Source of the DNA: a virus
Strand: one strand, 5' to 3'
Length of the DNA: 64,000 bases
IMG/VR virus record: IMGVR_UViG_3300020201_000015
Span: 1-64,000 of that record
Shown here: positions 1 through 58,023 of the stretch, one piece after another
Layout of the letters: each line of letters begins with the position of its first letter
Numbering within the stretch: the stretch's first letter is position 1
Notes under the pieces: generated by a model
Database searches by the model: none
What the model was told of the DNA's origin: nothing
Seen by the model: only the letters and a program-made list of their open reading frames with translations
Made by a program: the position numbers and the translations under genes

Positions 1-58
1 TTGCTAGACCATGACACGCGAGCGCGGGGCCCCGACCTCGCGTGTCATGGTCTAGCAA
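1..58. repeat. Perfect 22-bp inverted repeat at the window edge (14-nt loop)
   Basis: 1-22 TTGCTAGACCATGACACGCGAG is the exact reverse complement of 37-58. Confidence 0.9.
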
Positions 59-19511: not shown

Positions 19512-19867
19512 CGGACGCCGATCCTGAGCCGGGCCGCGATCTGGCTCATCACCGTATCGAGCGCCTCGACCTCGAGGTCGGTCAGCTGGTCGCTGTAGCG
19601 CTCGACGGCCGAGAGGTCCGATCGCACTCGCGCGCGTCGCGCCTCCCGCACCGCGCGCGCATCGTCGCCAGGCACGAGGTCGCGGACCTCGGAGCGCGGC
19701 TCCCTGGGTACGCGCCGGCCGCTCTCTCGGTCCCACACCTCGCCGGTGTCGGTGGTCAGCCGCGTCGCCGTGACCTTCACCACGGTCCGGAAGCGCAGCC
19801 AGCGCATCGGGCTCCAGCCCCGGCGCGACTCCTCGACGACCCGGTCCCCGACCTGAGCCTTGATCAT
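19508..19867 (-). CDS. Small beta-barrel-type protein, paralog B
   Basis: Tandem duplicate of the adjacent gene. Confidence 0.6.
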   Translation of the reverse strand: MIKAQVGDRVVEESRRGWSPMRWLRFRTVVKVTATRLTTDTGEVWDRESGRRVPREPRSEVRDLVPGDDARAVREARRARVRSDLSAVERYSDQLTDLEVEALDTVMSQIAARLRIGVR

Positions 19868-26285: not shown

Positions 26286-26873
26286 GCTGACTCCATCGTG
26301 GTGCGGGCCCATTGCAGGAGCTCGGTCATCGCGAGCGCCCCGCACGCCGGGACGACGGCGTTTCCGAGGCCCTTGAGCCTGGATCTGTCGCCTCTGACTC
26401 CGTCGGAGATGCGGAGCCCCGACGTCGGCGGCGCTGATAGCGAGGGCGCGGGTTCGGTAGCCAAGAGCATGCAGGTCTGACCGCACCTCGCACAGCCATC
26501 GCTTGGCGCCGCTGGCGACGTTTTCGACGATGGCGGCTGCGGGCCGCAGCTCGTCGACGATCCGGCGGTACTCGTACCAGAGTCCGGACCGGGTTCCGAC
26601 GGCGATGCCGGCGCCTCGTCCAGCCGCGCTGACGTCCTGGCAGGGAAAGCCTCCGACGATGAGATCCACGGAAGCAAGAGTTGCTGAGCCAGCATGACGC
26701 ACGTCCTCCACGGAGCGGTCTACCTCGGGCCAATGCCGAGCTAGGACCTGGCGACAGAAGCCGTCGACCTCGACCTGCCAGAGCGCCTGAGATGCGACGC
26801 CGGCGCGCGCGCACGCCACCTCGACGCCGAGGTCGAGCCCACCGATACCACTGAAAAGCGAACCGATCCTCAC
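26282..26873 (-). CDS. C5-cytosine DNA methyltransferase, split across two overlapping frames and lacking a TRD
   Basis: Motifs I (LFSGIGG), IV (GGFPCQ), VI (ENV), VIII (APHLRR) in the frame starting at 26873; motif X (LKGLGNAVVP) in the 26282-26695 frame. Confidence 0.75.
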
Positions 26874-36448: not shown

Positions 36449-36520
36449 CCCCTCGTGCTCAACAACACCACCCCCGCAGCCGCCGCCCCGCCTAGCCGCC
36501 TTATTTGGGGCACCTGCAAA

Positions 36521-36600
36521 TAGTTCTTGCACTGGGCACGTACCGGGTGCATACTCCTCTTGCCACCGAGAGACACGGACCCCCAAAGGACACCGACCCC
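36521..36600 (+). promoter_or_regulatory. Repeated promoter and leader, copy 1
   Basis: TTGCAC(36527)-N17-CATACT-CCTCTTGCCACC..GACACGGACC..AAGGAC..ATG. Confidence 0.8.
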
Positions 36601-36888
36601 ATGACCACCTCGAAGATCGTCACCTTCACCCAGGCCGCCGCTATCCGCGCCATTCGCCTCCGTCGGGCTCGTCTGCTTGCGAGGGTCGACGCCGCTCACG
36701 TCGATCGCAACATTGAGATCGTAGTCTTCGGCGTACGCGCCGTCGTCGACATCGGCGTCGACACGATCCGGGTCTGGGACGCCGTCGCCGAGGACTACGT
36801 CCTCGACATCTCCGGGGCGGTCAGCGCCTGGGCGCGACCGCGCATCCTCGAAGCGGCGCGCCGAGAAGCGGCGCGCCGAGCCTCCTGA
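36601..36888 (+). CDS. Small early protein
   Basis: ATG directly after the repeated leader and RBS. Confidence 0.65.
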   Translation: MTTSKIVTFTQAAAIRAIRLRRARLLARVDAAHVDRNIEIVVFGVRAVVDIGVDTIRVWDAVAEDYVLDISGAVSAWARPRILEAARREAARRAS

Positions 36889-43475: not shown

Positions 43476-43857
43476 CTGCAACCGAAGACATTCGCGCCCT
43501 ACCGTTGTCCGTCGACGTGGAACTCGTGTTCGAGATTGAGCCGGCGACACACGCCAACGAGCCGAACGAACTGCGGCAGCAGTTGGCTAAGGCGCGAGCG
43601 CAGCGCGATGCCGTGGTGCATGCGGTAGGCGCAGGGTCGGTAGATCCTGACGTAGTAGCAGAGGCCATAGGCGTGTTGCGGTCGATGCGCGCAGCGAAAG
43701 AGAAGGCCGACGCTGATCGTGACGAGGCGCGTAGGCAACTCGCGATCGTCGAGGTCGAGCGCGACGAGGCGCTGGCGAAGCTCGATGCGGCGCGAGCGAT
43801 GGTGCGACTGACCCTCGCGGACGCAGTCGACTACGTGGCCGAGTGCGACCTCGTGCC

Positions 43858-44910
43858 ATGACTGACGAACTAACCGTCGACGAGCGCGCCATCGCGCTCC
43901 TGCGCAGAGAGAACGTGGCGCTTGGCGCGATGCTGAGCATGCGCGAGGACGAGCGCGACCATGCCATCCGCCAGCGCGAGTCGACGATCGAGAGCGGAAT
44001 CGTGCGGCACCTCAAGCTGCGCATCGAACGTGACGAGGCCCGCGCATCACGCGGCGAGGCCGAGGCCACCATCGCCGAGCTGCGCCGCGAGCGCGACGGT
44101 TGGGAGCTGGGCGCCGCCGAGCGCGCCCGCGACGACGCGGCTATCCTCGAGGGGCGGCAACACCAGCTGAAGGCCATGTGCCGCGAGCGCGACGAGGCCC
44201 GTAGCGAGCGCGACTCGGCGCAGTCGAGCGAGTGCGAGGTCAGAGATCTGCGCGGCAAGCTGGCCGCCGTCGTCGCCGAACTCGGGGACATCGCGACCCG
44301 CCGCAAGGCAGCACTGCGCGGCGAGGATGCGGCGCGCGCCGACATGGCAGTCGCGTTAGCTGGCGTCGTCGCCGAGCGAGACGCGGCGCTACTCAAGCTC
44401 GTGCTCGCCGAGTCCACCATCGAGGGTGGTCGCGCCGCCGCCGCAGAAGAGCGCCGGCGCCTGTCCGATGTGGCAGACGTCTGTACCGAGCAGGTGCTGC
44501 TCGCCGATGCCACCATCGACGAGTTGCGCCGCGAGCGCGACGAGGCGCAGGCGAAGCTCGAAGCGGTGCGGGCGCGTGTGCAGAGCGCCGGAGCGCTCTG
44601 GGTCACGTACGAGGTCGCCGACAGGGAGACCGCCGCCGAAGTGGCGGCCGCCTACGCGCTAGCCGAGGCCTTCGGCGCGATGAGCGGCGAACTGCTCGGC
44701 GCTCATGCGGAGCCGCGAGCACATGTCGACGCGATAGCGGCAGGACCGCCTCCGATCTCGGCGAGCTGGGAAGGCCGCATCCGGAAGCTGGAGGCGGCAG
44801 AGCGACAGCGCGCCTGCGCCGACGACGGCCACGCCAGCCACCGCTGGGAGCAGGACCCGAGCACCGGCTGGCTCCTGTGCCTCCGATGCGGAGAAGAGAA
44901 AAGTCCATGA
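43858..44910 (+). CDS. Coiled-coil protein with ERDEA repeats
   Basis: Repeated (L)RRERDEA heptads; C-terminal CLRC. Confidence 0.65.
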   Translation: MTDELTVDERAIALLRRENVALGAMLSMREDERDHAIRQRESTIESGIVRHLKLRIERDEARASRGEAEATIAELRRERDGWELGAAERARDDAAILEGRQHQLKAMCRERDEARSERDSAQSSECEVRDLRGKLAAVVAELGDIATRRKAALRGEDAARADMAVALAGVVAERDAALLKLVLAESTIEGGRAAAAEERRRLSDVADVCTEQVLLADATIDELRRERDEAQAKLEAVRARVQSAGALWVTYEVADRETAAEVAAAYALAEAFGAMSGELLGAHAEPRAHVDAIAAGPPPISASWEGRIRKLEAAERQRACADDGHASHRWEQDPSTGWLLCLRCGEEKSP

Positions 44911-45500
44911 AAACCAGGCCGATCTTGTTCAGCGGACCGATGGTTCGAGCTTTGTTGGCAGGGTCGAAGACCCAGACGCGCCGGCTCGTGAAGGCGCGCG
45001 CAGCCCCATACGGCGCAGCTGGCGACCGCCTCTACGTGCGCGAGACCTGGTGCGAATGGGCCAGTCGCGAAGCGCGGTACCGCGCCGACTTTAAGCCTCG
45101 CTATGGCGCGCACGAACGCGACATGCCCGGCATGATCGAGCGGGTCGAGCAATGGAAGCCGTCGATCTTCATGCCGCGGTGGGCATCGCGCATCCTCCTC
45201 GATGTCACGTCGGTGCGAGTCGAGAAGCTGCAAGCAATCACCGAGGAGGACGCGCGCGCAGAGGGCCTCACGAGGCTCAGCAAGGACGGCGGAAGGACCT
45301 GGAAGTGGGGCCTCGCAGACCGAGACGGCTTGCCCGGTACCGACGACGACGGCATGGAGTGGCAGGACTGGGACGTCGATGCGCGACGCCCTTATGCCAA
45401 GCTCTGGGATCGGATCAACGGCGACCGCGCGCCGTGGGAGTCCGACCCGATGGTCTGGGTCATCGGCTTTCGGCGGGCCGAAGCGAAGGAGGCGAAGTGA
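44907..45500 (+). CDS. ASCH/PUA-like phage protein
   Basis: PILFSGPMVRALL.GSKTQTRR, GDRLYVRETW, PSIFMPRWASRI.L, W..DP.VWVI.F. Confidence 0.85.
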   Translation: MKTRPILFSGPMVRALLAGSKTQTRRLVKARAAPYGAAGDRLYVRETWCEWASREARYRADFKPRYGAHERDMPGMIERVEQWKPSIFMPRWASRILLDVTSVRVEKLQAITEEDARAEGLTRLSKDGGRTWKWGLADRDGLPGTDDDGMEWQDWDVDARRPYAKLWDRINGDRAPWESDPMVWVIGFRRAEAKEAK

Positions 45501-46537
45501 TGGACTACGACGATCACGAGCAGTACTCGCCGAGGTACGCCTCGGACCAGGCCTACTGGCGAGGCGTGAAGGCCACTCAGTTCCTTCATCTGGCAGCTGG
45601 CTCACCGCTCCCGCATGACGCCGAGGGCGGCGACATCCCGCCCAAGGCGCAGCCCGGTAGCAGCTGCGCATCGTGCGGCGCGGTCGCCATGTATCGCCTC
45701 GACCAGTCGATATCTGACAACTTCACCACGATGAAGAACAACTCCAGGGCATGGCCAGTGGGCGGCGACTCGATCTGCGCAGCGTGCCTTTGGTGCTGCC
45801 GCTCGCTCGCGCTTCGATGCGGGCTGTTCTTCGCTCGCCTACCCGACGATCGTGGGCGCGGTGGGATCTGGTTCACGCCCGTCCGTCCGCTACCAGGATG
45901 GGAGAATCCGAAACCCGGCGCCACGGAAACGTGGCCCGTCATGGGTCGCCCGGACCCGCTCGCGGCGCTGCTCGCCCCGCCTCCGGCCCCGTTCGTTGCA
46001 GGGTTCCCTCTCTATGGCATCGACCACGGCGGAGAGGCGAACAGCCAGCGCGTGGTGTGGCAGTGGACCAACGAGGACGGGACGCAGCGGAGGCACGTGC
46101 CGGGCATGTCCGAGAAGATGAAGCTCCAAAAGGACGGCACGAAGAAGCTCGAGACCGTCGGGCCGCTCATCAAGATCCAGAGCAAGCACACCGCGCTCTA
46201 CTGCCGCATCTCCGGGTCCTCGGAGCGCTACCACCTTCAGGTCGACGACGCCCTCGATGTGATGGTCGACGTCCCGCTGTGGCGCTCGCTCCTGTCGTTT
46301 GCCGAGCCTCTGCTGGATGACCTTCGCGGCGCCGGCGTCGGCGCGCAGGACGCCCGCGCATCTCTCGTGTCGCTCAAGCCTCCGGCGGGCGCGCCGATAT
46401 CTCTCTTGTCGACTTGGAGCGCGCGCGTAGCGCCATTCGTTAGGCACGCGTCCGCTTCGTGGTGGAGTCGCGTGTTCGTCGCACTGATGCCGATGCCTGA
46501 TCTCGTGATCCAACCCAAGAAAGACCGTGCAACATGA
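45500..46537 (+). CDS. csf1: Type IV CRISPR-Cas large subunit Csf1 (Cas8-like)
   Basis: CASCG...SDNFT...ICAAC Zn finger, LLAPPPAPF, SKH; first gene of the RAMP operon. Confidence 0.75.
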   Translation: MDYDDHEQYSPRYASDQAYWRGVKATQFLHLAAGSPLPHDAEGGDIPPKAQPGSSCASCGAVAMYRLDQSISDNFTTMKNNSRAWPVGGDSICAACLWCCRSLALRCGLFFARLPDDRGRGGIWFTPVRPLPGWENPKPGATETWPVMGRPDPLAALLAPPPAPFVAGFPLYGIDHGGEANSQRVVWQWTNEDGTQRRHVPGMSEKMKLQKDGTKKLETVGPLIKIQSKHTALYCRISGSSERYHLQVDDALDVMVDVPLWRSLLSFAEPLLDDLRGAGVGAQDARASLVSLKPPAGAPISLLSTWSARVAPFVRHASASWWSRVFVALMPMPDLVIQPKKDRAT

Positions 46538-48042
46538 CCACCGTTCGGGATATCGAGATCGCCCGCGCCCGCGCTAGCTACCTGTTCCGCGCGTTCTGGA
46601 AGCGCATCGAGTGGGAGTCTCTCGGGAAGGACCGTCGACGAGGTATCACCAAGGAGGCGCAGGAGGCGCTGTGGCCGATCGCGCTCTCGTCGCGGTCGAC
46701 GCTCGAGGTGTGCCGCGCCTTCGCGACGCGCTTCGAGGTCCAGCTGTCAGGTACCGAGTACGACGCGCCTCCGTACGCTTGGATTCACAAGAGTTTCATC
46801 GCCGATGGCACGCCAAGTGAAGCGCGGGCGAACATGCCGCCGGACCACGTCGCTGTGCGATGGGACTTCCTCGCGCGCACGATTGACTTCGCCGCGCTGC
46901 GGCTCGTCGTGCATGAGAACCCGGCGCTGATCATCACGTTCGCCGCGATGGATCCGATCGACGGCGAGGCAGATCTGTTTCCACTGCCCGATGACGAGGG
47001 TGCGGACGGCGCGCACTGGGCCGCGCCGCTCCCCGAGCGGATGATCTCGCCGCGCGTGTTCCGCGCCTGCTGGACCACGCTCTCGCCGATGTTTCATGGC
47101 GCCGACGAGAAGAGCGGCAACGTGCTCACGTTCCGCCGCGAGAAGCGCGTGGACCCGCACACTGGGGCGATCGATCTCGTGCCGTTCATCTCTGGCAACG
47201 CGTTCCGCGGGCAGCTTCGCGACCGGCTCTTCGGTCGGATGCTGATGTTGCTCGGGATGAAGCCGACCGACCTGCCGCCGGCGCGAGCGCATGCGCTCTT
47301 CTCCGGCGGCGCGATCGACGCAGGCGCAGATGGCGGCAAGGCAGACGTGACGGCTCGTCGCGCAGCCAGGTCGCTCGCCCCGGCGTGGGATCTCATCGCT
47401 GGATGCATCGACCAGCAGATCATGGAGGGCGTGCTGCGCGTCCACGACGCACACCTTGTCTGCCGCGAGAACGCATGGCTACTCCACGCGATGCTGTCTC
47501 CGACGCTGCCAGACGGCTCTTCGATGCCGCTCGACACCTTCCGCGCCGCGCTCAAGCCGGCTGACGACCTGACGCAATTGCGGCTCGGGACTCGTCACGC
47601 CCACCGCGACTTCGACGCCGCCGACGGCATCCAGATGTTGTGGAACACGGAGGGCATCCTGCCGGGGTCGCAGATGGTCCACTCGCTTCAGGTACACGGC
47701 ATGGCTGGTGTTTCCGAGCTGACTCTGTCGTGCCTCGCTGACGTGCTCGCGGACTTTCGCGATGACGCCTTCGTCGGCGCGCAGACGGCCAGAGGGTACG
47801 GGCGGATCGCGTTCGACCCGTATCGATCGCTCGATGTCGAACTGCCTTCGCCAGACGTCTACAGGCAATTCCTGCTGGAGAAGGCAGACGAGATCAAGGC
47901 TTGGCTCATGGGCGGCAATGGCGGGACACAGGTCGTCGCGGCGGGCGCGTCGACCGGGAGGCGCAGCAAGAAGAGCGCGGTCGAGGTCGTCACGGATTCG
48001 ATCGTCACAGAGTCCGCCTCGCTGCAAGGCGGGCTGTTCTGA
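46534..48042 (+). CDS. csf2: Csf2 (Cas7) backbone with an N-terminal Cas11-like helical domain
   Basis: LSPMFHG, VPFISGNAFRGQLR, LFSGG, QM....E....G, G...ARGYG; extra ~170 aa at the N-terminus. Confidence 0.9.
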   Translation: MTTVRDIEIARARASYLFRAFWKRIEWESLGKDRRRGITKEAQEALWPIALSSRSTLEVCRAFATRFEVQLSGTEYDAPPYAWIHKSFIADGTPSEARANMPPDHVAVRWDFLARTIDFAALRLVVHENPALIITFAAMDPIDGEADLFPLPDDEGADGAHWAAPLPERMISPRVFRACWTTLSPMFHGADEKSGNVLTFRREKRVDPHTGAIDLVPFISGNAFRGQLRDRLFGRMLMLLGMKPTDLPPARAHALFSGGAIDAGADGGKADVTARRAARSLAPAWDLIAGCIDQQIMEGVLRVHDAHLVCRENAWLLHAMLSPTLPDGSSMPLDTFRAALKPADDLTQLRLGTRHAHRDFDAADGIQMLWNTEGILPGSQMVHSLQVHGMAGVSELTLSCLADVLADFRDDAFVGAQTARGYGRIAFDPYRSLDVELPSPDVYRQFLLEKADEIKAWLMGGNGGTQVVAAGASTGRRSKKSAVEVVTDSIVTESASLQGGLF

Positions 48043-48806
48043 TGTCCTGGCTCCGGCACAACCTGGGGTGGCTCCAACGCGCCGGCGAGCGATGGGGCTG
48101 CGCCCACGCGGAGCCGCTGCGCTTGCGGGCGTGGATGGCTTCTCCGGTCATCTGGGACGCGTACGATGGGCTGCGACTTGAGGGCGCTCTTCAGTACGCG
48201 GTAGTCGCGCTCGAGTCTGGCAGCGTGCCTAGCGACGTCTTCGCCGATGCGCCGCGGGACATCGCCGTCGACATCCCGATCCCGATCGTCGACGTGGAGA
48301 TAGGCGGGAGGCGGATCGCGTGCGCCTCGGTCGCCTTGGCTCCGCCATGCGCCATCGAGACGGTGCGATTCATCCGCCGGCGAGCGCGAGTCGAGGCGCT
48401 TGCTGTCGGCAAGGTGCTGATCTCGGGCGGTCCGTACAAGTCGACGAACATCCCCAAGGCGACGGTGACGACGCCGTGGGTCGACTTCTTCGTGCGCGGA
48501 GATCGGGCTCGCCTGGCGACGCTGCTCAAGGACGTCTCCTCGCTGTCCGCCTCTCGCGCAGGTGGGCTCGGCGTCGTGCTCGGGTGGCAGATCGACGATG
48601 ACCCGGACGACCGGTCTTTGGTCTACCGCGACGCGCCGCAGCGCACGCTTCCGCTGGTCTCGGACGGCGGCGAGTGGGACCTGCAACGGTTCGACCCGAC
48701 GACATACGAGATCCGCGAGGCGACGACGCGGGCGCCGTACTGGCATCAGCGGAGCAGGGCGGAGTGCCTGACGCCTGTGCCCCGCAGAGAGGCGGCGGCA
48801 GCGTGA
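48042..48806 (+). CDS. csf3: Csf3 (Cas5-like RAMP)
   Basis: PLRL.A....P, L.LEGAL, GPYK, GD...L..LL, R..G.G.V..W, RAPYW. Confidence 0.85.
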   Translation: MSWLRHNLGWLQRAGERWGCAHAEPLRLRAWMASPVIWDAYDGLRLEGALQYAVVALESGSVPSDVFADAPRDIAVDIPIPIVDVEIGGRRIACASVALAPPCAIETVRFIRRRARVEALAVGKVLISGGPYKSTNIPKATVTTPWVDFFVRGDRARLATLLKDVSSLSASRAGGLGVVLGWQIDDDPDDRSLVYRDAPQRTLPLVSDGGEWDLQRFDPTTYEIREATTRAPYWHQRSRAECLTPVPRREAAAA

Positions 48807-49558
48807 CGGGTGCCTTCGACCTCCGTGAGCTGCCGTCCTTCGCGTCGGATCCGTGGTTCGCTCCGCCTCCCGCGTTCGACTCGTGGATGCCTGGCGGGGC
48901 ATGTGAGCTGCGCATGTCGCAGTCGGCAACGCTGACCCAGGTGCATGGCGCAGTGTCCGCTGTGCTCGGGGACAGCGGAGTCGACCACGGCCGGCGGTTC
49001 TCTCCGTTTGCGCTCGACGTCGACGGTCTCCGGAGGGTGAGGCTGATTCTACACACCGAAGAGGCCGCGGCGGTCATCGCGCACGGACGGTTTCAGACCA
49101 TGGTAGGCGACCGGCGGGCGACTCTGAGCGTAGGGCCACTGCAACGCATCCGGGCGCCAGTGGTCCATGGACTCGGGCCGCGCAGGGTCAGAGTCGAAGC
49201 GCTCACGCCGGTGCTGATCCGGCATCGCGTGACCGACGAAACGAGGCCGAGCGGCAAGGTCACGCTGACCTATCGGAGCGGCCACACCGACCAGATCGCG
49301 AATGCGGTTGGTGTGCAATTTTGCGAGCGCCTCGGGCTCCCATACGTCGAGTTGCTCCGAATGGAACACGTCGACTCGAGCACGTCACCTGCGGTGGTGA
49401 ACCTCGGGCGCAAGATCAAAGGAATAGCCGGATGGGTCGGAACGGTCGACCTGCGTACGAACGGGGTCGGCGAGTGGCTGCTGCGCGCGGCCGAGATCAT
49501 GGGGCTCGGCGGACGGACCGCCTACGGCCTTGGCAGGGTGAGGGTCACGCGATGCTAG
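48803..49558 (+). CDS. cas6: Cas6-family endoribonuclease
   Basis: TPV..R, GWVG, C-terminal Gly-rich loop GLGGRTAYGLGRV. Confidence 0.8.
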   Translation: MTGAFDLRELPSFASDPWFAPPPAFDSWMPGGACELRMSQSATLTQVHGAVSAVLGDSGVDHGRRFSPFALDVDGLRRVRLILHTEEAAAVIAHGRFQTMVGDRRATLSVGPLQRIRAPVVHGLGPRRVRVEALTPVLIRHRVTDETRPSGKVTLTYRSGHTDQIANAVGVQFCERLGLPYVELLRMEHVDSSTSPAVVNLGRKIKGIAGWVGTVDLRTNGVGEWLLRAAEIMGLGGRTAYGLGRVRVTRC

Positions 49559-49848
49559 CTGACGCCGTCGTGAACGTGATGTGCCACTGCGGGTCAGCTG
49601 TCGCCCGTGGCCGACAGCTCTACTGCTCCGCTCGCTGCGCCGAGGTCGCATGGGTCGAGAAAACCACCGATCGAGTCGTCGCCGCCAACCGCGCCCGCAT
49701 CGCTGCCCGTCAGGGCCCGTGTCGCGTGTGCCAGAGTCCGATCGCAGGCTACCGCTGGCGCGAGACGTGCTCGCGCAAGTGCTACAGGCGGCTCTTCGTT
49801 TACCGGCAATGGAAGGAGTGGCCGACGTCTCAAGATCGCTTGCGCTAG
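49552..49848 (+). CDS. Small Zn-finger protein
   Basis: CHCG...YCSARC; CRVC...TCSRKC. Confidence 0.6.
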   Translation: MLADAVVNVMCHCGSAVARGRQLYCSARCAEVAWVEKTTDRVVAANRARIAARQGPCRVCQSPIAGYRWRETCSRKCYRRLFVYRQWKEWPTSQDRLR

Positions 49849-49915
49849 CGGTATCCTAGCGCGTACAGTCCTGATCGACTGAAGCGGCGGCGCGGTGCTG
49901 ATACACCCGCCGCCA
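49840..49915 (+). promoter_or_regulatory. Putative promoter with palindromic operator and leader hairpin
   Basis: TTGCGC-N18-TACAGT; GCGCTAG-N7-CTAGCGC; GGCGGCG..GGTG-CTGATA-CACC-CGCCGCC hairpin. Confidence 0.5.
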
Positions 49916-49945
49916 TGGCCAGACCCTCTTCCAAGGATCCGACTC

Positions 49946-50548
49946 GTGAGTCATAGCACCAGTTACCGAGTGCAAGTCGGCGACATACAGAACGGCTCCC
50001 CGATCGACTTGCTCATGCGCGGCGAGAAGGCCGACATCGTCTACTCGGACCCGCCATGGGGACAGGGGAACCTGACCTACTGGCGGACCCACAACGGAGA
50101 GCGCGAGCGAGTCTCATGGGTCGACTTCATTGGCACGTTTTGCGCTGCCGTTGTCGCTCACGCGAAGCCCGGCGCCCACGTGTTCGTGGAGATGGGCGAG
50201 CGATGGGTCGACGAGATGGCAGCGATATTTGAGGCGCTAGGCCTGCCAGAGTCTCAGCGCTGGCGATGCTTCTACAGCAATCCGAAGTTGCCCAACGTCC
50301 TGTGGTACTCGGGACCAGGCACCACTGCCAATCCGTCTGGCATGAGCGGGGTGGCGATGACGGCTCACGTGCTGCGCTCGGTCGCAACAGTCGGCGCTCT
50401 CGTGCTCGATCCGTGTTGCGGCAAGGGCATGACCGGCCGCACCGCGATGCGCCTCGGGATGCGCTTCGCTGGCAACGAGCTAAACCCGAAGCGACTCGCC
50501 GTGACCCAGTCGTGGTGCGAGCGCTACGTGGCGGGCAAGACGCGATGA
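49946..50548 (+). CDS. Small amino-methyltransferase (beta-class order, N4C/N6A type)
   Basis: DIVYSDPPW before VLDPCCGKG; little room for a TRD. Confidence 0.8.
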   Translation: MSHSTSYRVQVGDIQNGSPIDLLMRGEKADIVYSDPPWGQGNLTYWRTHNGERERVSWVDFIGTFCAAVVAHAKPGAHVFVEMGERWVDEMAAIFEALGLPESQRWRCFYSNPKLPNVLWYSGPGTTANPSGMSGVAMTAHVLRSVATVGALVLDPCCGKGMTGRTAMRLGMRFAGNELNPKRLAVTQSWCERYVAGKTR

Positions 50549-51417
50549 TCCGCGTCGGCTGCGACGCACCTTCCAAGCTTACAACGGTTGCGTCGACCAT
50601 CGCCAGCACGGGCGCACGCAAGGTGGTAGCGATCTCGCCAGCCAGGTTCCGCCTTGAGCTACCCGACTGCGGGGCCCTGGTCGAGCACATCGAATGGGCC
50701 GAGGTCATACAGTACAAGCACTTCTACCGCCTCGTGCAAGAGACCGACTCGTCGACCCTAGTCGTCGTCAACGAGTGCCTGCGAACGCAGAGCAGGCACG
50801 ACCTGACGTACAACTGCATCCGTCACTTCCTCAACCAGACGCCGCACCAGGTCATCTTCCAGCGGTTCCCGATCATCGACTCTCTCGACGATCTCATGAC
50901 GCTGGTCGACTTCGACACGCGCAGTAGGTGGAAGCGCGAGCCATTCGACCGCGCGATGCTCGCGGACATCGACATCGCGGTGGAGCGGCGCGACGTCACG
51001 CTAAGTGCCGTGGACGTCGAGACCGACGAGGCTACGCGCGTCGCCTACGGGCGCGAGAAGCGCCGACTGCTTGACGGCATCGGCCTCAAGGACCCGCACA
51101 CGATCCCTCGCAACCTGCACCTGATGGCTGGCAAGTCGAAGATGGCAGTGGCCGCCGCCGACCAGCTCTACGTCGGCCGCAACGCCCGCCTTGGCATTCG
51201 CGGGCTCGAGACATATCGCGACGTCGCCACGACAGAGCCGCGGGACGTCTTCGAGTTCTGTCACAACGTGATCGACTTCTCTGACTTTCTCGCCGTCACC
51301 GGGCAGAGCGTCGTTCGCGCGCTCGTCTCCGATCTTCGAGTTGATCGCTGGTACTTCGACCGCTTCACCGCTTGGGCACGGAGGGTCAGCGATGCCTACT
51401 CAGCGATACTCGGGTGA
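50545..51417 (+). CDS. Conserved-looking protein, possibly a degenerate SF2 helicase domain
   Basis: LVVVNEC resembles Walker B but no Walker A is seen; coupled within the operon. Confidence 0.45.
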   Translation: MIRVGCDAPSKLTTVASTIASTGARKVVAISPARFRLELPDCGALVEHIEWAEVIQYKHFYRLVQETDSSTLVVVNECLRTQSRHDLTYNCIRHFLNQTPHQVIFQRFPIIDSLDDLMTLVDFDTRSRWKREPFDRAMLADIDIAVERRDVTLSAVDVETDEATRVAYGREKRRLLDGIGLKDPHTIPRNLHLMAGKSKMAVAAADQLYVGRNARLGIRGLETYRDVATTEPRDVFEFCHNVIDFSDFLAVTGQSVVRALVSDLRVDRWYFDRFTAWARRVSDAYSAILG

Positions 51418-52519
51418 GACCGTTCTTGAGGCCGCGCGTAGACGCATGGCGTTCGTGTTCGACTCCTTCCAGGAGATCATCGTTTCGATCAGCGGCGGGA
51501 AGGACTCCACCGTCCTCGCTCACCTCGCTCTCGTAGAGGCGCATCGCCGAGGGCGGCGCGTCGGGATGTTCTTCCTGGACGAGGAGGTCATGTACCAGGA
51601 GAGCGTCGAGCAAGTCGACTACCTGATGTCGCTCTACCCGGAGAACACCAAGCGCATGTGGCTCCAGGTGCCTTTCCGCCTGACCAACGCGACGTCCGTG
51701 GAGGCCGGTCAGCTCGACTGCTGGGCGCCGGGCGAACACAAGGTGTGGATGCGCCCGAAGCGGGCCGACGCGGTCAAGGCGAAGCCTTGGGACATCGCCA
51801 CCGAGACCGTAGCGTGCGCGGCTAAGGGATTCGGCTTCTACGACGCCATCGCCAACTTCGAGCGGACCCACCACGGAGCCGCGTTTCTCGTTGGGCTGCG
51901 CGCGGCTGGCGAGTCGCCCAACCGGTGGCGCGCCGTCGTGAAGAACCCGATCGACGTCGCCGGCAAGTCGGTCTTCTGGGGCACCAAGAAGCGCGACAAT
52001 TCCGTTCTCTACCCGGTCTTTGACTGGAACCACCACGACGTGTGGCGGTACATCCACGACGAGAAGATCCGCTACTCCAAGGTGTACGACTGGCAGTTTC
52101 GCAAGGGCTACGCGCTCAACCAGATGCGCGTGTCGTCGCTTATTCACGAGCGCGCCTTCAAGTCGATCTGCGACTTGCCAGAGTTCGAGCCCAAGACGTT
52201 CGAGCGGCTCAGTCGACGGATCAAGGGCATCTCCATGGCCCAAGAGACCGGCAAGAGCGCCAAGATGTTCGCCTGTCGGAAGCTGCCGAAGAACTTCCGA
52301 TCGTGGCGAACCTACCGCGACTTTCTGTTTGCTACGCACTCGGACCAGGCGCGGCGGCCCATCTTCGAGCGGCGCTTCGCGAAGCAGCTCGACAACGAAC
52401 ACGTGGCCCGGCAGCAATGCCGGCAGCTCATCCTGAACGACTACGAGAACAACCTTCCCGTCGACAACAAGCCAGACCCGCGAGACGAGACGATCCGCTA
52501 CTACGAGGAGGTCCTGTGA
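51392..52519 (+). CDS. ibrA: PAPS-reductase-family PP-loop protein (IbrA-like)
   Basis: SISGGKDST, FLDEE, LVGLRA.ES.NRW, YPVFDW...DVW, MRVS. Confidence 0.8.
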   Translation: MPTQRYSGETVLEAARRRMAFVFDSFQEIIVSISGGKDSTVLAHLALVEAHRRGRRVGMFFLDEEVMYQESVEQVDYLMSLYPENTKRMWLQVPFRLTNATSVEAGQLDCWAPGEHKVWMRPKRADAVKAKPWDIATETVACAAKGFGFYDAIANFERTHHGAAFLVGLRAAGESPNRWRAVVKNPIDVAGKSVFWGTKKRDNSVLYPVFDWNHHDVWRYIHDEKIRYSKVYDWQFRKGYALNQMRVSSLIHERAFKSICDLPEFEPKTFERLSRRIKGISMAQETGKSAKMFACRKLPKNFRSWRTYRDFLFATHSDQARRPIFERRFAKQLDNEHVARQQCRQLILNDYENNLPVDNKPDPRDETIRYYEEVL

Positions 52520-53142
52520 CGAAACGACGAGAAGCGTCCGTGCTGAGAATCGACACCGCAGAACAGGGACTCGCCGCAGTGGCATCGCGGTCCGTGGAGT
52601 ACGTCACGGCCGCATCCGGGAAGCGCGTCCCTGTGCCATGCATGTCGACGTGGCTGGTGAGCCCGGCGATGGTGGTGGCCAATGGGTACAACCCGAACCA
52701 CGTACCAGAGGAGAAGATGAAGCTGCTTCGGCAGAGCATCCTCGATAACGGGTTTTGCTTCCCCATCGTCACGATATGGGACGCCGAGCAGGAAAAGTTC
52801 ATCATCGTCGACGGCTTCCACCGAAGTCTCGTCGCGAGCGGCGAGTGGCTCGGGCTCGACTACGTGCCGATCGTGGTGCTCGACCACGGGCCGCGGCAGC
52901 GCATGGCGGCCACGGTGCAATTCAACAAGGCGCGGGGCGTCCACCAGGTGGACCTCGACGCCGAGGTGATTCGCGCGCTCATCGAGCAGGGCATGTCCGA
53001 AGACGAGATCTCGACCCATCTTGGAATCGATCTGGAGACCATCCATCGGTACAAGCAGGTGACTGGCGTGGCCGCGCTGTTCGCCAAGGCCGACTACTCG
53101 CGAGCATGGGAGATGGTCGACGATGACGTCGTCAGCCCGTGA
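52516..53142 (+). CDS. ibrB: ParB/Srx-fold protein with HTH (IbrB-like)
   Basis: AN.YNPN.V, SI..NGF..PIV, IVDGFHR, ATVQFNKARG.H. Confidence 0.85.
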   Translation: MTKRREASVLRIDTAEQGLAAVASRSVEYVTAASGKRVPVPCMSTWLVSPAMVVANGYNPNHVPEEKMKLLRQSILDNGFCFPIVTIWDAEQEKFIIVDGFHRSLVASGEWLGLDYVPIVVLDHGPRQRMAATVQFNKARGVHQVDLDAEVIRALIEQGMSEDEISTHLGIDLETIHRYKQVTGVAALFAKADYSRAWEMVDDDVVSP

Positions 53143-53947
53143 GCCGCGACTATCCGCGGACGACGTCCGGGCGTGGGACATCTGGCGCAGGGCTGCGCTG
53201 GTCCACGCTCGGTCGCAGCGACACCTGCGCGCTGTTGACAAGGCTCGGCGCATCGTCGCCGACGGGCTCGAGAAGGCTCCGCGTGCGGCGCTGATGTGGA
53301 GCGGAGGCAAGGACTCCACCGCGATGACGCACTTGGTTTGCGTCGACATGGGCGCCGGCGTCGACGTGATCAGCGAGAAGGACGACCTCGACTACCCAGG
53401 CGAGGTCGAGTACGTGACGGCGCTTGCGGAAGCCTGGGGCTGCAAGCTTCGTATCGTCACGCCAGGGCAGTCGCCGGTGGCTTGGATGGATGCGCACGCG
53501 CACGAGCTTGACGCTGGCGACGACATCCACTCGCGCGCGGCCGGGCTTAGCAAGGCGTGCTTCTATGCGCTAGTCGAGGCCGCTACGACGTCGTACGACG
53601 GCATCTTGCTAGGGCTCCGGCAGGAGGAGAGCCACGGCCGACGGATGAACGCCGCGACGCACGGGGCGTGCTACCGGCGCAAGTCTGGGCAGTGGACGAT
53701 CGCGCCGCTCACCTACTGGAGCGGACTCGACGTGTTCGCGTACCTTCTCTCGCGCGACATCGATCCACTGCACGTCTACCGATGCATCGCGTTCATGCAC
53801 GCGCGCGAGCCATGGCGACTGCGCAAGTCGTGGTGGATACCAGGCGCGAGCTCGCGGCACGGAGGGACAGCCTGGCTCCGCCACTACTACCCGACCCTGT
53901 TTCGCCGCCTGCTCCAGTGGATCCCATCTGAGCGGTCGTTTACCTAG
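53123..53947 (+). CDS. CysH-like PAPS-reductase-family protein (type IV-B-associated type)
   Basis: WSGGKDST, LGLRQEES.GR, PL..WS..DVFAY, WLRHYYP. Confidence 0.85.
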   Translation: MTSSAREPRLSADDVRAWDIWRRAALVHARSQRHLRAVDKARRIVADGLEKAPRAALMWSGGKDSTAMTHLVCVDMGAGVDVISEKDDLDYPGEVEYVTALAEAWGCKLRIVTPGQSPVAWMDAHAHELDAGDDIHSRAAGLSKACFYALVEAATTSYDGILLGLRQEESHGRRMNAATHGACYRRKSGQWTIAPLTYWSGLDVFAYLLSRDIDPLHVYRCIAFMHAREPWRLRKSWWIPGASSRHGGTAWLRHYYPTLFRRLLQWIPSERSFT

Positions 53948-53990
53948 CCTTTCCGAGGCCTTGCGGGCGAGTCGAGGAAAGATCGTCGAA

Positions 53991-54067
53991 ACACCTTGCA
54001 CGGGGTACGTGCCGGGTGCATACTCCTCTTGCCACCGAGACACGGACCCCCCGAAAGGACCCCGACC
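53991..54067 (+). promoter_or_regulatory. Repeated promoter and leader, copy 2
   Basis: TTGCAC(53996)-N17-CATACT plus the same leader. Confidence 0.8.
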
Positions 54068-54510
54068 ATGAAGACCAAGGTAACCATCTCACAACGCGCC
54101 GACATCGAGGCCGCTCGCGTCTCGTCGACAGACGCCACGTTTGTGGCCGTGTGCGAGGCCGCGCTAGGCGGCCCGATGGCGCCCAACCCGATGGGGGCAG
54201 GCAAGGTCGGAGCAAAGGGCGCGATCGCGTACCTGCGATCCATTAGGGTGATCGAGGTGGCGTCGTGAGCGAGTACACTTTTGGTCTACGTGGCGCGACT
54301 GAGACGCGCGATCTTTGCCGCCCCAAAAACCGGGCAAAGATCCGCAGGATTGAAACGCTGCACGGCGTCACCTGGACGTCGTACGAAGGACCGGAGAAGC
54401 GCCTCAGGTCCTGGTTCTCCGGGCCGAACAAGGGGGAGCCGTTCGACCGCTCGCTCGCGGCTGACGTGCTAGCCAGCATGGTGGCCGCAGGTCTCGACTC
54501 CACGACCTGA

Positions 54511-54602: not shown

Positions 54603-55139
54603 ATGACCACATCGAAGACCGCCGCCGCCGCCAACACCCTCGCACTCGTGGCGCATGCGCGCCGCGTCGCCAGTATCGGATCGATGATCCGGATGACGGC
54701 TAAGCGCTGCGCCCAGGAGGCTCAGTGGGCGCTCGGCAGGGGCGACATCTACGCCTATCACACGCTGCTCGATGCGGAGACCGCGATTCGCACTCCCCTG
54801 CGCATGGTGTTCTTGCAGCCGAGGCCCGCGCCGATCGCGGCGCCGGTCAAGAAGGCCGCGATGAGCGATGCCGCTGCACTCGCGGCTGCCGTGGCGGCCG
54901 CCGAGGCGATGCCGGAGGAGCGGGAGCGCGTCGCTGTCGACGCGGCCGCCGAGCCGATGGTCCGCCGGATCATCGAGGCGGCGGCGCTGACGAGCGCGGT
55001 GTGGTGGCCCGAGAGCGAAGAAGAGGACGGCGCCCGCACGGTGGAGCTCGACCTCATTCAGGCGCGCCGCCTGACCCACGCACTCGGTGCCGCAGGCGTC
55101 TCCTACTCCTACAGCGAGGGCATGTAGAAAGATCTGCGA

Positions 55140-55214
55140 TAGTTCTTGCACTGGGTACGCGCCCGGTGCATACTCCTCTTGCCACCTGACACGGACCACG
55201 AAGGACCCCGACCC
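55140..55214 (+). promoter_or_regulatory. Repeated promoter and leader, copy 3
   Basis: TTGCAC(55146)-N17-CATACT plus the same leader. Confidence 0.8.
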
Positions 55215-55681
55215 ATGAACGCAATGATCGCACTCGCAAAAATCTCCGACATGCACATCCGGGCGCTGCACGCCGACGCGGTGCACGGCAGGGCTGCGAC
55301 CCTCGCACTGGTGGGGCCCGACTCAGGGCCCGAAGCGGACGTCTGGTACGAAGCCGCTTGCGCCGTAGTGAAGGTCTACAGCGCGGAAATCTTCCGGCGC
55401 CATATCGTCCGCGCGGAAGCCGCGGTGGCGACGTGACCGCCGTCGCCACGCACACCGCAGAAGACTGGGTATCGTCGATCGTCCCGATCTGTTGGGTCAA
55501 TGGTGAGGCGCACTCGACTCGGCAAGTCGACGCTGGTCGCGAGGTCTACGTGGCGGTCCTTCGTGGTGCCAGCACGCGACCGTCTTACGCCTTCTCGCGG
55601 CGCGACCTGGCCCAAACCATGCTTGGAACTTGGGCCGGCGATGTGCTGAGCGTCACCCTGCGCTCGGATGTGGCGGCCTGA

Positions 55682-57426: not shown

Positions 57427-57616
57427 GTGAGCGGCAAGGTCGCAGACGACACGTCGCAGCGCTCGCGTTCGCGCGGGTCGTACCGCTACACGCTCACCAC
57501 CGACGTGGTCGAGTGGGTACGCGCAGAGGCGGCGCGCCGCCAGGTGTCGGCAAGCGAGGTGGTACAGGATGCGCTTGCGGAGGCGCGAGATCGGCTTATT
57601 CGAGGGGGGGGGGTAA
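57427..57616 (+). CDS. Ribbon-helix-helix-like regulator; end depends on a poly-G tract
   Basis: YTLT.DVVEWVRAEAARRQVSASEVVQDAL; as given it reads through to 58023. Confidence 0.55.
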
Positions 57617-57620
57617 CAAA

Positions 57621-57705
57621 CAGTTCTTGCATGGGGCACGTACCGGGTGCATACTCCTCTTGCCACCGAGAGACACGGACCCGGACCCCAAAGGACCCCG
57701 ACCTC
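57621..57705 (+). promoter_or_regulatory. Repeated promoter and leader, copy 4
   Basis: TTGCAT(57627)-N17-CATACT plus the same leader. Confidence 0.8.
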
Positions 57706-58023
57706 ATGAAGACGACGACGACCCACACGATCACCGAGCTTGGCGACTACGGCGCCCGCGTGCACCGCGGTACGTTCGAGGTCTTCTGCGCCGCCGGCAC
57801 CAGGCGCGCGGGTGGGGAGTGGGCGATCGTGTCCCGAGACGGGGAGACCAATACGGAGCCGACGGCGTCCGTCACGGACGGGCCGAAGGGGCCCATCCCC
57901 GGGCCCGTGCTCGCTTCTATCCGCGCGGCTCTCGTAGACCTTCCGCGCTCTGAGCATGAGGAGCGAGAGCGGATGCGACCACTGGTCATCGAAGCCATGT
58001 GGAAGCGCCGCGCGGCAGCCTGA

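What the first reader, a model, noticed from the sequence alone, without database searches (positions are those of the whole stretch)
45500..53947. Phage-encoded, array-less type IV-B-like Cas module with Cas6, linked to a methyltransferase/IbrAB/CysH operon
Seen: overlap-coupled csf1, Cas11-like-csf2, csf3 and cas6. These are followed by a Zn-finger gene, a small amino-methyltransferase, a helicase-like gene, two different SGGKDS PP-loop (PAPS-reductase-family) proteins and a ParB/Srx protein. There is no cas1/cas2, Cas3, DinG or CRISPR array in the window. Established: type IV-B loci are carried by mobile elements, associate with cysH-like genes, usually lack both an array and cas6, and have no known function. 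PAPS-reductase-fold (DndC/SspD) and ParB-fold (DndB) proteins act in DNA phosphorothioation. Inference: this may be an RNA-guided nucleic-acid modification or anti-defence machine rather than an immunity nuclease. Cas6 would supply guides from non-canonical RNAs or from host crRNAs.
Basis: partly seen in the sequence, partly recalled or inferred. Interest (0 to 1): 0.92.

Follow-up and report, generated by a model that had tools for sequence, protein, structure and literature searches.

The report
Phage type IV-B Cas with IbrAB
A phage from a microbial mat carries a CRISPR-array-less type IV-B-like Cas protein complex with its own Cas6, joined in one gene string to a methyltransferase, two ATP-using PP-loop enzymes and a ParB-like protein, and this pairing recurs in related phages, which gives a testable lead to what the unexplained type IV-B systems do.

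Summary

No CRISPR array, Cas1, Cas2, Cas3-HD, DinG-type or Cas12-like gene was found in the whole genome. Csf2 carries a fused 172-aa N-domain in the place of cas11. Cas11 homology is shown only for the sister clade (E 0.0048) and is inconclusive here.

IbrAB lies within 10 kb in 9 of 12 close relatives with enough flank. An IbrA relative occurs in 217 of 50,697 cultured phage records. In some relatives IbrAB sits inside the csf/cysH string.

This is a new variant of subtype IV-B (Cas6-bearing, fused small-subunit position, IbrAB cassette). The mechanism is inferred, not shown: an RNA-scaffolded complex that brings adenylating and DNA-handling enzymes to nucleic acid. This scan noted the IV-B/IbrAB pairing before on other DNA (22 notes). 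My paper searches found no paper that links them.

The parts
45500..46537 (+). csf1-like large subunit (345 aa) with a conserved CxxC..CxxC zinc-finger motif (C56, C59, C93, C96)
46534..48042 (+). csf2 (Cas7) with a fused N-terminal domain. Residues 1-172 form a helical domain in the position of cas11. Residues 172-460 form the Csf2 RAMP domain. The tail is disordered.
48042..48806 (+). csf3 (Cas5), 254 aa
   Evidence: TIGR03116 E 1.3e-6. Family profile against PDB chains named Csf3: 8rc3_F E 3e-12 and 7xfz_B E 3.5e-12.
48803..49558 (+). cas6-like RAMP protein, 251 aa, with invariant H48 and H62 and a C-terminal glycine-rich loop (GLGGRTAxGLGRVRV)
   Evidence: PF10040 E 2.4e-5, 25.4 bits against a cut-off of 25. 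6 of 7 family members match PF10040. Alignment. The PDB profile match is only weak (Cas6 6fjw, E 0.53).
49552..49848 (+). 98-aa Cys-rich (two CxC/CxxC...CxxxC pairs) ORF with a low coding score
   Evidence: Sequence. Weak YdaE match, E 0.016. No relative in the 47 related loci by tblastn. Coding score 12.3.
49886..49914 (+). GC-rich hairpin in the only intergenic gap of the string (49849-49945), with no U-tract
   Evidence: The 66-nt fold gives -30.4 kcal/mol, z -3.3, and 0 of 200 shuffles fold as well. It is not conserved upstream of the MTase in 12 relatives.
49946..50548 (+). small N6/N4 amino-methyltransferase (DPPW motif). The likely start is GTG 49946; the ORF is open from 49895.
   Evidence: PF01555 E 8.3e-9. 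phrog_498 E 1.9e-12. The start was chosen by comparison with L001 and by the AAGGA upstream.
50545..51417 (+). 290-aa protein resembling an SNF2 N-terminal lobe, with no recognisable Walker A or DExH motif
   Evidence: ESM Atlas structure search gives TM 0.64-0.67 to SNF2-rel_dom clusters, on the Atlas's own model of pLDDT 0.52. No Pfam, PHROG or PDB hit. No Helicase_C domain anywhere in the genome. Relatives at 41-57% identity lie next to ibrA in L001, L015, L017, L032, L033 and L044.
51392..52519 (+). IbrA-like PP-loop protein (PAPS_reduct + DUF3440), 375 aa, SGGKDS
   Evidence: PF01507 E 4.5e-12 and PF11922 E 7.1e-7. phrog_2302 E 2e-76. The PP-loop is invariant in 11 of 11 sequences and no Cys column exceeds 7 of 11.
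52516..53142 (+). IbrB-like ParB/Srx-fold protein with a C-terminal HTH, 208 aa (motif VDGFHR)
   Evidence: PF02195 E 4.1e-4, below its cut-off. phrog_2159 E 3.6e-43. It also matches the ParB half of phrog_498, whose MTase half matches g87.
53123..53947 (+). CasCysH-like PP-loop protein, 274 aa, SGGKDS, with no conserved cysteine
   Evidence: PF01507 E 5.2e-11. In a 17-sequence alignment S60, G62, K63 and S65 are invariant and no Cys is invariant. It is present beside csf genes in both clades.
53985..54070 (+). Copy 2 of a roughly 90-nt promoter-and-leader-like element. It marks the start of the next transcription unit and so the 3' boundary of the string.
   Evidence: Four + strand copies near 36520, 53990, 55140 and 57620. 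Each ends in AAAGGA followed by ATG about 10 nt downstream.

Best explanation
SHOWN. A tailed phage (89 kb, 66% G+C, from microbial-mat metagenomes) encodes an array-less type IV-B-like effector. It consists of Csf1, a Csf2 with a fused N-domain in the place of cas11, and Csf3, plus a Cas6-like protein. These genes are translationally coupled to a small amino-methyltransferase, a degenerate SNF2-N-like protein, IbrA-like and IbrB-like proteins, and a cysteine-less CysH-like PP-loop protein. The Cas and enzyme blocks recur together in relatives and are interleaved in several gene orders.

INFERRED.
1. Csf2 polymerises on an RNA. This may be an RNA trimmed by Cas6, or any RNA, as reported for the 7JHY complex. 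Csf3 and Csf1 cap the filament. The built-in N-domain plays the small-subunit role at 1:1 stoichiometry.
2. The ribonucleoprotein binds a complementary or structured nucleic acid.
3. There it positions the PP-loop ATP pyrophosphatases (CysH-like, IbrA-like), which adenylate a base, backbone or RNA end. The ParB-like IbrB and the methyltransferase act on DNA. The result is a covalent mark, not a cut.
4. For the phage the pay-off is counter-defence or control of its own or host nucleic acid during early to middle infection.

My odds: Cas identity about 0.9; functional coupling of the Cas and IbrAB/CysH blocks about 0.6; the adenylation-and-modification mechanism about 0.3.
For: Identity of the Cas proteins.

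One gene string: overlapping stops and starts. No copy of the repeated promoter-like element lies between 36.5 kb and 53.99 kb, and one lies directly after cysH.

Linkage of the two blocks:
- ibrA plus ibrB lie within 10 kb in 9 of 12 clade-A loci that have at least 7 kb after csf2. This becomes 7 of 10 if the near-identical L002, L003 and L040 count once. In clade B the figure is 4 of 11.
- For comparison, an IbrA relative occurs in 217 of 50,697 cultured phage records.
- Interleaving in the window: the IbrAB cassette lies between cas6 and cysH.
- L026 reads csf2-ORF-ibrB-ibrA-cysH-csf3.
- L017 reads csf2-..-snf-ibrA-ibrB-MT-cysH.
- L028 reads SNF2-MTase-..-csf2-ORF-cysH-ibrA-ibrB.
- L032 has the window's full gene set in another order.
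- One IbrA type (66-72% identical to the window's) sits with clade-A csf2 (L001, L032, L044) and with clade-B csf2 (L015, L017, 28% identical). A second type (39-44%) also sits with both clades. The pairing was therefore assembled more than once.

Chemistry: both PP-loops are intact and no cysteine is conserved. This matches the published proposal of ATP alpha-hydrolase/AMPylation activity for CasCysH (PMC8175902, passages read). g87 and g90 match the two halves of one PHROG of ParB-MTase fusion proteins.
Against: - No biochemical or expression data exist for this locus. No RNA run was listed.
- IbrA-like genes in cultured phages occur without any relative of this Csf2: 0 of 50,697 records at E 1e-5. 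The cassette therefore works on its own, and the pairing could be co-location in an accessory-gene region.
- 3 of 12 close relatives with enough flank lack IbrAB (L007, L008, L035), and 7 of 11 clade-B loci lack it.
- The base-rate comparison mixes metagenomic and cultured collections and different E-value limits.
- The Cas6 assignment rests on a borderline Pfam score, and its active site is not modelled.
- The N-domain is not shown to be Cas11-like in this clade.
- g88 rests on a low-confidence Atlas model.
- No candidate guide RNA was found: Rfam gave 0 matches, there is no array, and the one hairpin is not conserved.
Confidence: 0.45

Rival explanations
1. Guide capture or hijack. The phage Cas6 cuts host (or co-resident phage) pre-crRNA, and the Csf filament takes up those or other small RNAs. 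This either disarms host CRISPR immunity (a sponge) or re-uses the guides against competitors. The IbrAB/CysH enzymes are then a separate or only loosely coupled function.
For: This has been proposed in print for IV-B (PMC7038947 and PMC8175902, passages read). Having its own Cas6 without an array fits a need to process foreign repeats. One clade-A relative, L035, carries cas6-csf1-csf2-csf3 about 4 kb from an 8-repeat CRISPR array. That array lies beside a gene with a Cas12f1-like TNB domain. Its repeat folds into a hairpin (-13.3 kcal/mol, z -2.1).
Against: The window's genome has no array, no Cas12-like gene and no copy of that repeat. The host and its repeats are unknown. The published authors themselves judged a sponge of this complexity unlikely and noted that it does not explain CysH (PMC7038947, PMC8175902). 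The interleaving of enzymes with csf genes is not explained by this reading.
Confidence: 0.2
2. Two independent modules sit side by side. An autonomous phage IbrAB/MTase/SNF2 cassette (DNA modification or regulation) and a IV-B Csf/CysH module both sit in the early accessory region and are linked only by genome architecture.
For: An IbrA relative is present in 217 cultured phage records, and none of the 50,697 records has a Csf2 relative. Several csf loci lack IbrAB. The only non-overlapping junction of the string, which holds a hairpin, lies exactly between the two halves.
Against: The signature IV-B partner gene cysH lies beyond IbrAB in the window and in L017. IbrAB lies between csf genes in L026. 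Two IbrA types each pair with both csf clades. The co-occurrence is far above the 0.43% base rate.
Confidence: 0.17
3. Transcriptional control. Like type IV-A, which represses genes without cutting, the Csf complex binds DNA or RNA and silences host or phage genes. IbrA/IbrB, first named as co-activators of prophage gene expression, act as regulators.
For: Type IV-A works by CRISPRi-like repression (PMC13676074, passage read). IbrB has an HTH. [quoted passage not shown]
Against: There is no DinG or other helicase partner and no guide source. Two intact PP-loop enzymes and a methyltransferase point to chemistry, not just binding.
Confidence: 0.1
4. Decaying remnant of a once array-bearing system, with no present function.
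For: No array or adaptation genes are present. g88 looks degenerate.
Against: All ORFs are intact and overlap-coupled. There are 94 and 84 family members for g83 and g82, with conserved motifs. The gene set is kept across loci at 40-55% identity.
Confidence: 0.03

Closest known systems
Subtype IV-B CRISPR-Cas (csf1-cas11-csf2-csf3 plus cysH-like); reference complex Mycobacterium sp. JS623, PDB 7JHY (PMC7937560, listing and abstract seen; PMC8175902 and PMC7038947, passages read)
   Different: A Cas6-like gene is present; published IV-B has one in 'only 12 instances'. There is no separate cas11 gene; instead a 172-aa domain is fused to Csf2. An MTase/SNF2-N-like/IbrA/IbrB cassette is inserted between the cas genes and cysH. 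The element is a phage, apparently virulent-type and metagenomic, not a plasmid.
Sister phage clade of IV-B loci (L012-L028 here): cas11::csf2 - csf1 - cysH - csf3
   Same: Csf2 carries a fused N-terminal domain. A CysH-like gene is present. IbrAB, MTase and SNF2 genes are frequent neighbours.
   Different: Its N-domain is 127 aa and matches Cas11c of type IV-C (11fs_N, E 0.0048). The window's 172-aa N-domain shows no significant similarity to it (hhalign probability below 1%). The gene order differs, and tblastn with g85 detected no cas6.
Phage IbrA/IbrB cassettes (PAPS_reduct+DUF3440 with a ParB-like protein, often with SNF2 and a methyltransferase), e.g. Flavobacterium phage 1H 'putative IbrA protein'
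   Same: IbrA-like domain architecture and a ParB-like partner. The best cultured relative is 35.7% identical over 92% of the protein.
   Different: The cultured phages carry no relative of this Csf2. The function of the cassette is not established in any paper that I read.
Type IV-A and IV-C effector complexes (PDB 7XG0/7XFZ, 8RC3, 11FS; PMC13676074, passages read)
   Same: Same folds for Csf1 (IV-A), Csf2 and Csf3. Cas6 is used for crRNA maturation in IV-A and is sometimes encoded in IV-C.
   Different: Those systems have CRISPR arrays or borrow crRNAs, and they have DinG (IV-A) or an HD Cas10-like nuclease (IV-C). None of these is present here.
DndC/SspD phosphorothioation enzymes and PAPS reductase CysH
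   Same: PP-loop (SGGKDS) ATP pyrophosphatase fold family.
   Different: No conserved cysteine in either PP-loop family here. DndC models score only E 0.029-0.068, far below their cut-off.

Membership tests
Subtype IV-B CRISPR-Cas | Csf2 (Cas7) of the type IV lineage, nearest to IV-B | tested here: met
Subtype IV-B CRISPR-Cas | Csf1 large subunit | tested here: met
Subtype IV-B CRISPR-Cas | Csf3 (Cas5) | tested here: met
   TIGR03116 E 1.3e-6. Profile E 3e-12 to chains named Csf3.
Subtype IV-B CRISPR-Cas | separate cas11-like small-subunit gene | tested here: not met
   No separate gene lies between csf1 and csf2, because the stop and start overlap at 46534/46537. A fused N-domain occupies that position.
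Subtype IV-B CRISPR-Cas | cysH-like accessory gene lacking the catalytic cysteine | tested here: met
   g91 matches PF01507 at E 5.2e-11. No invariant Cys in 17 sequences.
Subtype IV-B CRISPR-Cas | no CRISPR array, adaptation genes, nuclease or DinG | tested here: met
   over the whole 89-kb genome (94% complete).
Subtype IV-B CRISPR-Cas | no cas6 | tested here: not met
   A Cas6-like gene is present. It occurs in 13 of 29 clade-A loci.
Cas11 (small subunit) | helical-bundle domain homologous to Cas11 | tested here: inconclusive
   The window clade's N-domain shows no PDB hit, hhalign probability below 1% to the sister clade's domain, nothing usable in the Atlas, and only its own fused family among 1.84 billion proteins. 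The sister clade's domain matches Cas11c at E 0.0048. The domain was not folded and searched alone.
Cas6 endoribonuclease | RAMP fold with a glycine-rich loop | tested here: met
   PF10040 at 25.4 bits against a cut-off of 25. 6 of 7 members match. G-loop GLGGRTAxGFGRVRV (family consensus).
Cas6 endoribonuclease | catalytic residues and a cognate repeat RNA | not testable with these tools
   Invariant H48 and H62 are candidates only. No repeat was found in this genome.
IbrA/IbrB pair | PAPS_reduct + DUF3440 protein next to a ParB-fold protein | tested here: met
   PF01507 plus PF11922, both over their cut-offs. phrog_2302 E 2e-76 and phrog_2159 E 3.6e-43. The genes are adjacent and overlapping. 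The architecture of E. coli IbrA is recalled, not checked here.
DndC/SspD-type phosphorothioation enzymes | match to the DndC model and conserved cysteines | tested here: not met
   TIGR03183 E 0.029 and 0.068, against a 290-bit cut-off. No conserved Cys.
SNF2 helicase | Walker A and DExH motifs plus a Helicase_C lobe | tested here: not met
   No Pfam hit for g88. No Helicase_C in the genome. The only support is a fold-level resemblance of the N-lobe.

The most novel reading that the evidence does not exclude
The locus is a CRISPR-derived 'writer'. A Cas6-matured RNA, taken from phage or host transcripts, programmes a Csf filament whose built-in small-subunit domain and Csf1 recruit two adenylating PP-loop enzymes, a ParB-like clamp and a methyltransferase. 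These would place a covalent mark at sequence-defined sites on DNA or RNA. That would make type IV-B an RNA-guided nucleic-acid modification system used by phages for counter-defence or takeover.
Probability: 0.2. Interest if true: 0.9.

Novelty: new variant of a known kind. Interest (0 to 1): 0.65.

Why it matters
Type IV-B is the one widespread CRISPR-Cas subtype whose function is still unknown. A 2026 paper still calls its biological function unclear (PMC13676074, passage read). This locus and its relatives tie the Csf complex to a defined set of enzymes: two cysteine-less PP-loop ATP pyrophosphatases, a ParB-fold protein and an amino-methyltransferase. They also add a Cas6. That turns 'function unknown' into concrete experiments: which RNA is bound, which proteins co-purify, and which nucleic-acid mark appears. 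The fused N-domain on Csf2 fixes a 1:1 backbone to small-subunit ratio and would simplify reconstitution. If the enzymes are guided by RNA, this would be a natural programmable modification system.

Tried and rejected
- CRISPR array or guide source. TRF on the window, a k-mer array scan of the whole genome, the repeat finder on 43-56 kb and Rfam at gathering threshold (0 matches) found nothing. The hairpin at 49886-49914 is stable but is not conserved upstream of the MTase in 12 relatives, so I dropped it as a candidate Cas6 site.
- Spacers of the L035 array against all loci and the genome gave only 14-15-nt chance matches.
- Promoter and terminator consensus scan: 0 promoters; 7 terminator-like sites against 6.8 expected.
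- Close relatives among cultured phages: megablast found none and tblastn with g83 found none. The best TerL match is 31.5% identical, so the host was not identified.
- Species-representative genomes gave 2 loci (L029 from a Pseudomonadota MAG, L030 from Nocardia farcinica).
- Cas11 test of the window's N-domain: the PDB profile found nothing relevant; hhalign gave E 0.18 and 0.086 with probability below 1%; the ESM Atlas features search gave no usable hit and its structure rows had TM 0.41 or less. VIA-align on the whole model tested only residues 172-447.
- g82 by sequence: Pfam, NCBIfam, PHROGs and the PDB profile all found nothing. The precomputed Pfam tags PF27781 and PF27782 on two relatives are not in the Pfam copy held here.
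- Csf1 with CysH-like co-fold (complex prediction): no verdict (score 0.14, mark 0.32). This counts neither for nor against binding.
- Sequencing runs: the DNA is held in microbial-mat metagenome runs of 2018. No RNA holder was listed.
- Literature. Searches: 'type IV-B'+CRISPR+cysH; 'type IV-B'+CRISPR+phage+IbrA (too loose to be useful); CasCysH (2 papers); DUF3440+ParB (3 papers, none relevant by title and abstract start); IbrA+IbrB as whole words (14 papers). By title and abstract start, none of the 14 links IbrAB to type IV. I read passages of two of them.
- The annotated region around IbrA of Flavobacterium phage 1H holds mostly hypothetical proteins and added nothing.

Full report
WHAT THE DNA IS. 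The window is the first 64 kb of a single 89,369-bp virus record (66% G+C, CheckV completeness 94%, classed linear). It is a tailed phage. It has portal, large terminase, head protease/major head, DnaB-like helicase, Sak4-like annealing protein, exonuclease and SSB genes. My own gene call gives 149 tightly packed genes. No cultured phage is close: megablast found none and the best TerL match is 31.5% identical. The same DNA is held in microbial-mat metagenome runs of 2018. The host is unknown.

THE OBSERVATION. Ten + strand genes fill 45500-53947. Every junction but one overlaps. The string is the distal end of a co-directional block that starts at about 36.6 kb. A roughly 90-nt element occurs four times on the + strand, near 36520, 53990, 55140 and 57620. 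It reads TTGCAC-17 nt-CATACT, then a conserved leader, AAAGGA and ATG. One copy opens the block. The next copy lies directly after the last gene of the finding, which sets the 3' boundary. That the element is a promoter is my inference.

THE CAS PROTEINS.
- g83 (502 aa) has 94 relatives in the 5.8-billion-protein collection. All are about 500 aa and unnamed.
- A profile of 45 of these relatives hits Csf2 of the type IV-B complex 7JHY at E 8e-18, Cas7c of type IV-C at 3.6e-9 and IV-A Csf2 at 0.03.
- g84 is Csf3: TIGR03116 E 1.3e-6, and profile E 3e-12 to chains named Csf3.
- g82 has no sequence-family hit. Its family of 84 proteins has a conserved CxxC..CxxC motif.
- g85 reaches the Pfam cut-off for CRISPR_Cas6 (25.4 against 25 bits). 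Six of 7 family members match that model. The family keeps two histidines (H48, H62) and a C-terminal glycine-rich loop. The PDB profile match is weak (E 0.53), so the Cas6 call is moderate, not strong.

THE 'CAS11-LIKE' PART. Residues 1-172 of g83 form a confident, mostly helical domain with a small beta insertion. It sits where IV-B loci have a separate cas11 gene.
- A profile of this domain finds only 47 proteins among 1.84 billion. Thirty-eight of them are 452-578 aa, so the domain is essentially always fused. The other nine are 116-328 aa and I did not examine them.
- In a sister clade of phage loci (L012-L028) Csf2 also has a fused N-domain, of 127 aa. That domain matches Cas11c of type IV-C at E 0.0048, as the top hit.
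- The window's domain shows no significant similarity to the sister domain or to any solved chain.
- A Cas11 fusion is therefore likely by position and by analogy, but it is not shown for this clade.

THE ENZYME HALF.
- g87 is a small N6/N4 methyltransferase with a DPPW motif. Its likely start is GTG 49946.
- g88 has no family hit. In the ESM Atlas it resembles the N-lobe of SNF2 proteins (TM 0.64-0.67), but that comes from a low-confidence model. I see no Walker A or DExH motif, and the genome has no Helicase_C domain.
- g89 is PAPS_reduct + DUF3440 (IbrA-like). g90 is a ParB-fold protein with an HTH (IbrB-like).
- g87 and g90 match the two halves of one PHROG of ParB-methyltransferase fusions.
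- g91 is a second PAPS_reduct protein. In 17 CysH-like sequences from these loci the PP-loop is invariant and no cysteine is.
- In 11 IbrA-like sequences the PP-loop is invariant and no cysteine column exceeds 7 of 11.
- This agrees with the published view that CasCysH lacks the catalytic cysteine and may act as an ATP alpha-hydrolase (PMC8175902, passages read). It argues against PAPS-reductase or DndC-type sulfur chemistry.

WHAT IS ABSENT. The whole genome has no CRISPR array. It has no Cas1, Cas2, Cas3-HD or DinG-type or other SF2 C-lobe, and no Cas12-like protein. The PAPS_reduct control found exactly the two expected genes.

RELATIVES AND LINKAGE. I fetched 47 loci with a csf2 match from viral, genome and metagenome collections. 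A 48th, L030, had no tblastn match in my table.
- Twenty-nine loci belong to the window's clade: L001-L011, L029 and L031-L047. My crude rule mislabelled L010, L045 and L046. L045 and L046 are cut by contig ends, and L010 has csf1 and cas6.
- Eighteen loci form the sister clade.
- csf1-csf2-csf3 is the constant core. cas6 is present in 13 of the 29 clade-A loci, either after csf3 or before csf1. This is a lower bound, because many contigs are short.
- Among the 12 clade-A loci with at least 7 kb after csf2, 9 carry ibrA and ibrB. This is 7 of 10 if L002, L003 and L040, which look like one phage, count once. L007, L008 and L035 do not carry them. In the sister clade the figure is 4 of 11.
- For scale, an IbrA relative (E 1e-10 or better) is found in 217 of 50,697 cultured phage records, and none of those records has a Csf2 relative. 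The two figures come from different collections and cut-offs, so they give only a rough enrichment.
- Gene order is stronger evidence. In the window and in L017, cysH lies beyond the IbrAB cassette.
- In L026, ibrB-ibrA-cysH lie between csf2 and csf3.
- In L028, SNF2 and MTase lie before the csf genes, and ibrA-ibrB lie after cysH.
- L032 has the window's whole gene set in another order.
- An IbrA type 66-72% identical to the window's accompanies csf2 genes of both clades (53-42% and 28% identical). A second IbrA type (39-44%) also accompanies both clades. The pairing has therefore been assembled repeatedly, which is what selection for a joint function would give.

A RELATIVE WITH AN ARRAY. 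L035 (csf2 42% identical) reads cas6-csf1-csf2-csf3, then a divergent PAPS_reduct gene and an unknown gene. Next come a 636-aa protein with a Cas12f1-like TNB domain and an 8-repeat CRISPR array (repeats of about 33-36 nt, spacing 70-75). The repeat can fold into a hairpin. Its spacers match nothing that I hold. This keeps open the idea that Cas6-bearing members load crRNAs from a neighbouring system. The window's phage has nothing of the kind.

MECHANISM. The parts list and its linkage are shown. The rest is inferred: a Csf2 filament on RNA, capped by Csf3 and Csf1, with the fused N-domain as a built-in small subunit. Cas6 would define RNA ends. The complex would bring two adenylating PP-loop enzymes, a ParB-fold protein and a methyltransferase to a nucleic acid, to mark it and not cut it. 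The rivals are guide capture or hijack, mere co-location of two modules, and CRISPRi-like regulation. A co-fold of Csf1 with the CysH-like protein gave no verdict.

COMPARISON AND NOVELTY.
- Published IV-B is defined by csf1, cas11, csf2, csf3 and cysH-like, with no array and no cas6 ('only 12 instances'). It occurs on plasmids and sometimes prophages (PMC7038947, PMC8175902).
- Virus-borne IV-B is known (PMC10848311, passages read). An N6-MTase appears among the abbreviations of a IV-B locus figure in the 2018 preprint (10.1101/270033, passages read).
- None of the papers that I searched links IbrA/IbrB to type IV. Supplements were closed.
- Two defining features fail here: there is no separate cas11 gene, and cas6 is present. 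I therefore file this as a new variant of IV-B, not a plain member.
- Earlier notes of this same scan describe the IV-B/IbrAB pairing on other DNA (22 notes in at least 16 genomes). I had seen the pairing before reading them. They are unchecked AI notes and not independent support.

VERDICT. This is a new variant of a known kind. Interest is 0.65, because it makes the open question of IV-B function directly testable.

Noticed in passing
window 36480-36620, 53950-54090, 55103-55243, 57581-57721 (+): Four copies of a roughly 90-nt element: TTGCAC, 17 nt, CATACT, a conserved leader, AAAGGA, then ATG. Each lies in front of a + strand gene. It is probably a phage promoter with a shared 5' leader that defines transcription units. 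The copy at 57.6 kb lies inside my gene call 57427-58023, which may therefore be wrong.
   Followed up: partly
window 49849-49945: The only non-overlapping junction of the string holds a very stable GC hairpin (49886-49914; z -3.3) without a U-tract, between the cas half and the enzyme half. It is not conserved in relatives.
   Followed up: partly
L035:8357-16575: A clade-A relative carries cas6-csf1-csf2-csf3, a divergent PAPS_reduct gene, a 636-aa protein with a Cas12f1-like TNB domain, and an 8-repeat CRISPR array.
   Followed up: partly
window 39062, 40245, 40650, 40993, 59483 (+): An 18-30-nt sequence (GGCGATTGCGGCAATCGAGCGGCAGATCGC, or its second half) recurs. Four copies lie 26-36 nt after the starts of small genes (40219, 40614, 40967, 59447), which suggests a family of small paralogous proteins with a shared N-terminus.
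   Followed up: no
window 19152-19854: A 356-bp tandem duplication (74% matches) covers two adjacent 119-aa genes on the - strand.
   Followed up: no
window 43708-44600: The 350-aa gene upstream (43858-44910) is built of imperfect 50-nt and 96-nt-spaced direct repeats rich in Arg, Glu and Asp codons. It is probably a repetitive coiled-coil protein and has no family hit.
   Followed up: no
window 44907-45500: The 197-aa gene whose stop overlaps the csf1 start matches phrog_874 (unknown function, E 9e-57). It has relatives upstream of the csf genes in L029 and L035.
   Followed up: no
window 25740-26873 (-): A second, larger DNA methyltransferase (phrog_363, E 6e-49) is encoded elsewhere in the phage.
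   Followed up: no
window 1-58 and G000:C1:89268-89289: Bases 1-22 and 37-58 form an inverted repeat, and the 37-58 arm recurs as a direct copy near the right end of the record. This may be a terminal feature or an assembly trace.
   Followed up: no
G000:C1:80299-80423 (outside the window): A 23-bp direct repeat (GGCAGAGAGAAGCCTGGGATGCC) occurs twice, 102 bp apart, in a region of GGGATCGAC-like short repeats. It is not an array.
   Followed up: no
L015:4650-5047: A 60-bp tandem repeat of 6.6 copies (96% matches) triggered my array scan. There are no spacers, so it is not a CRISPR array.
   Followed up: yes
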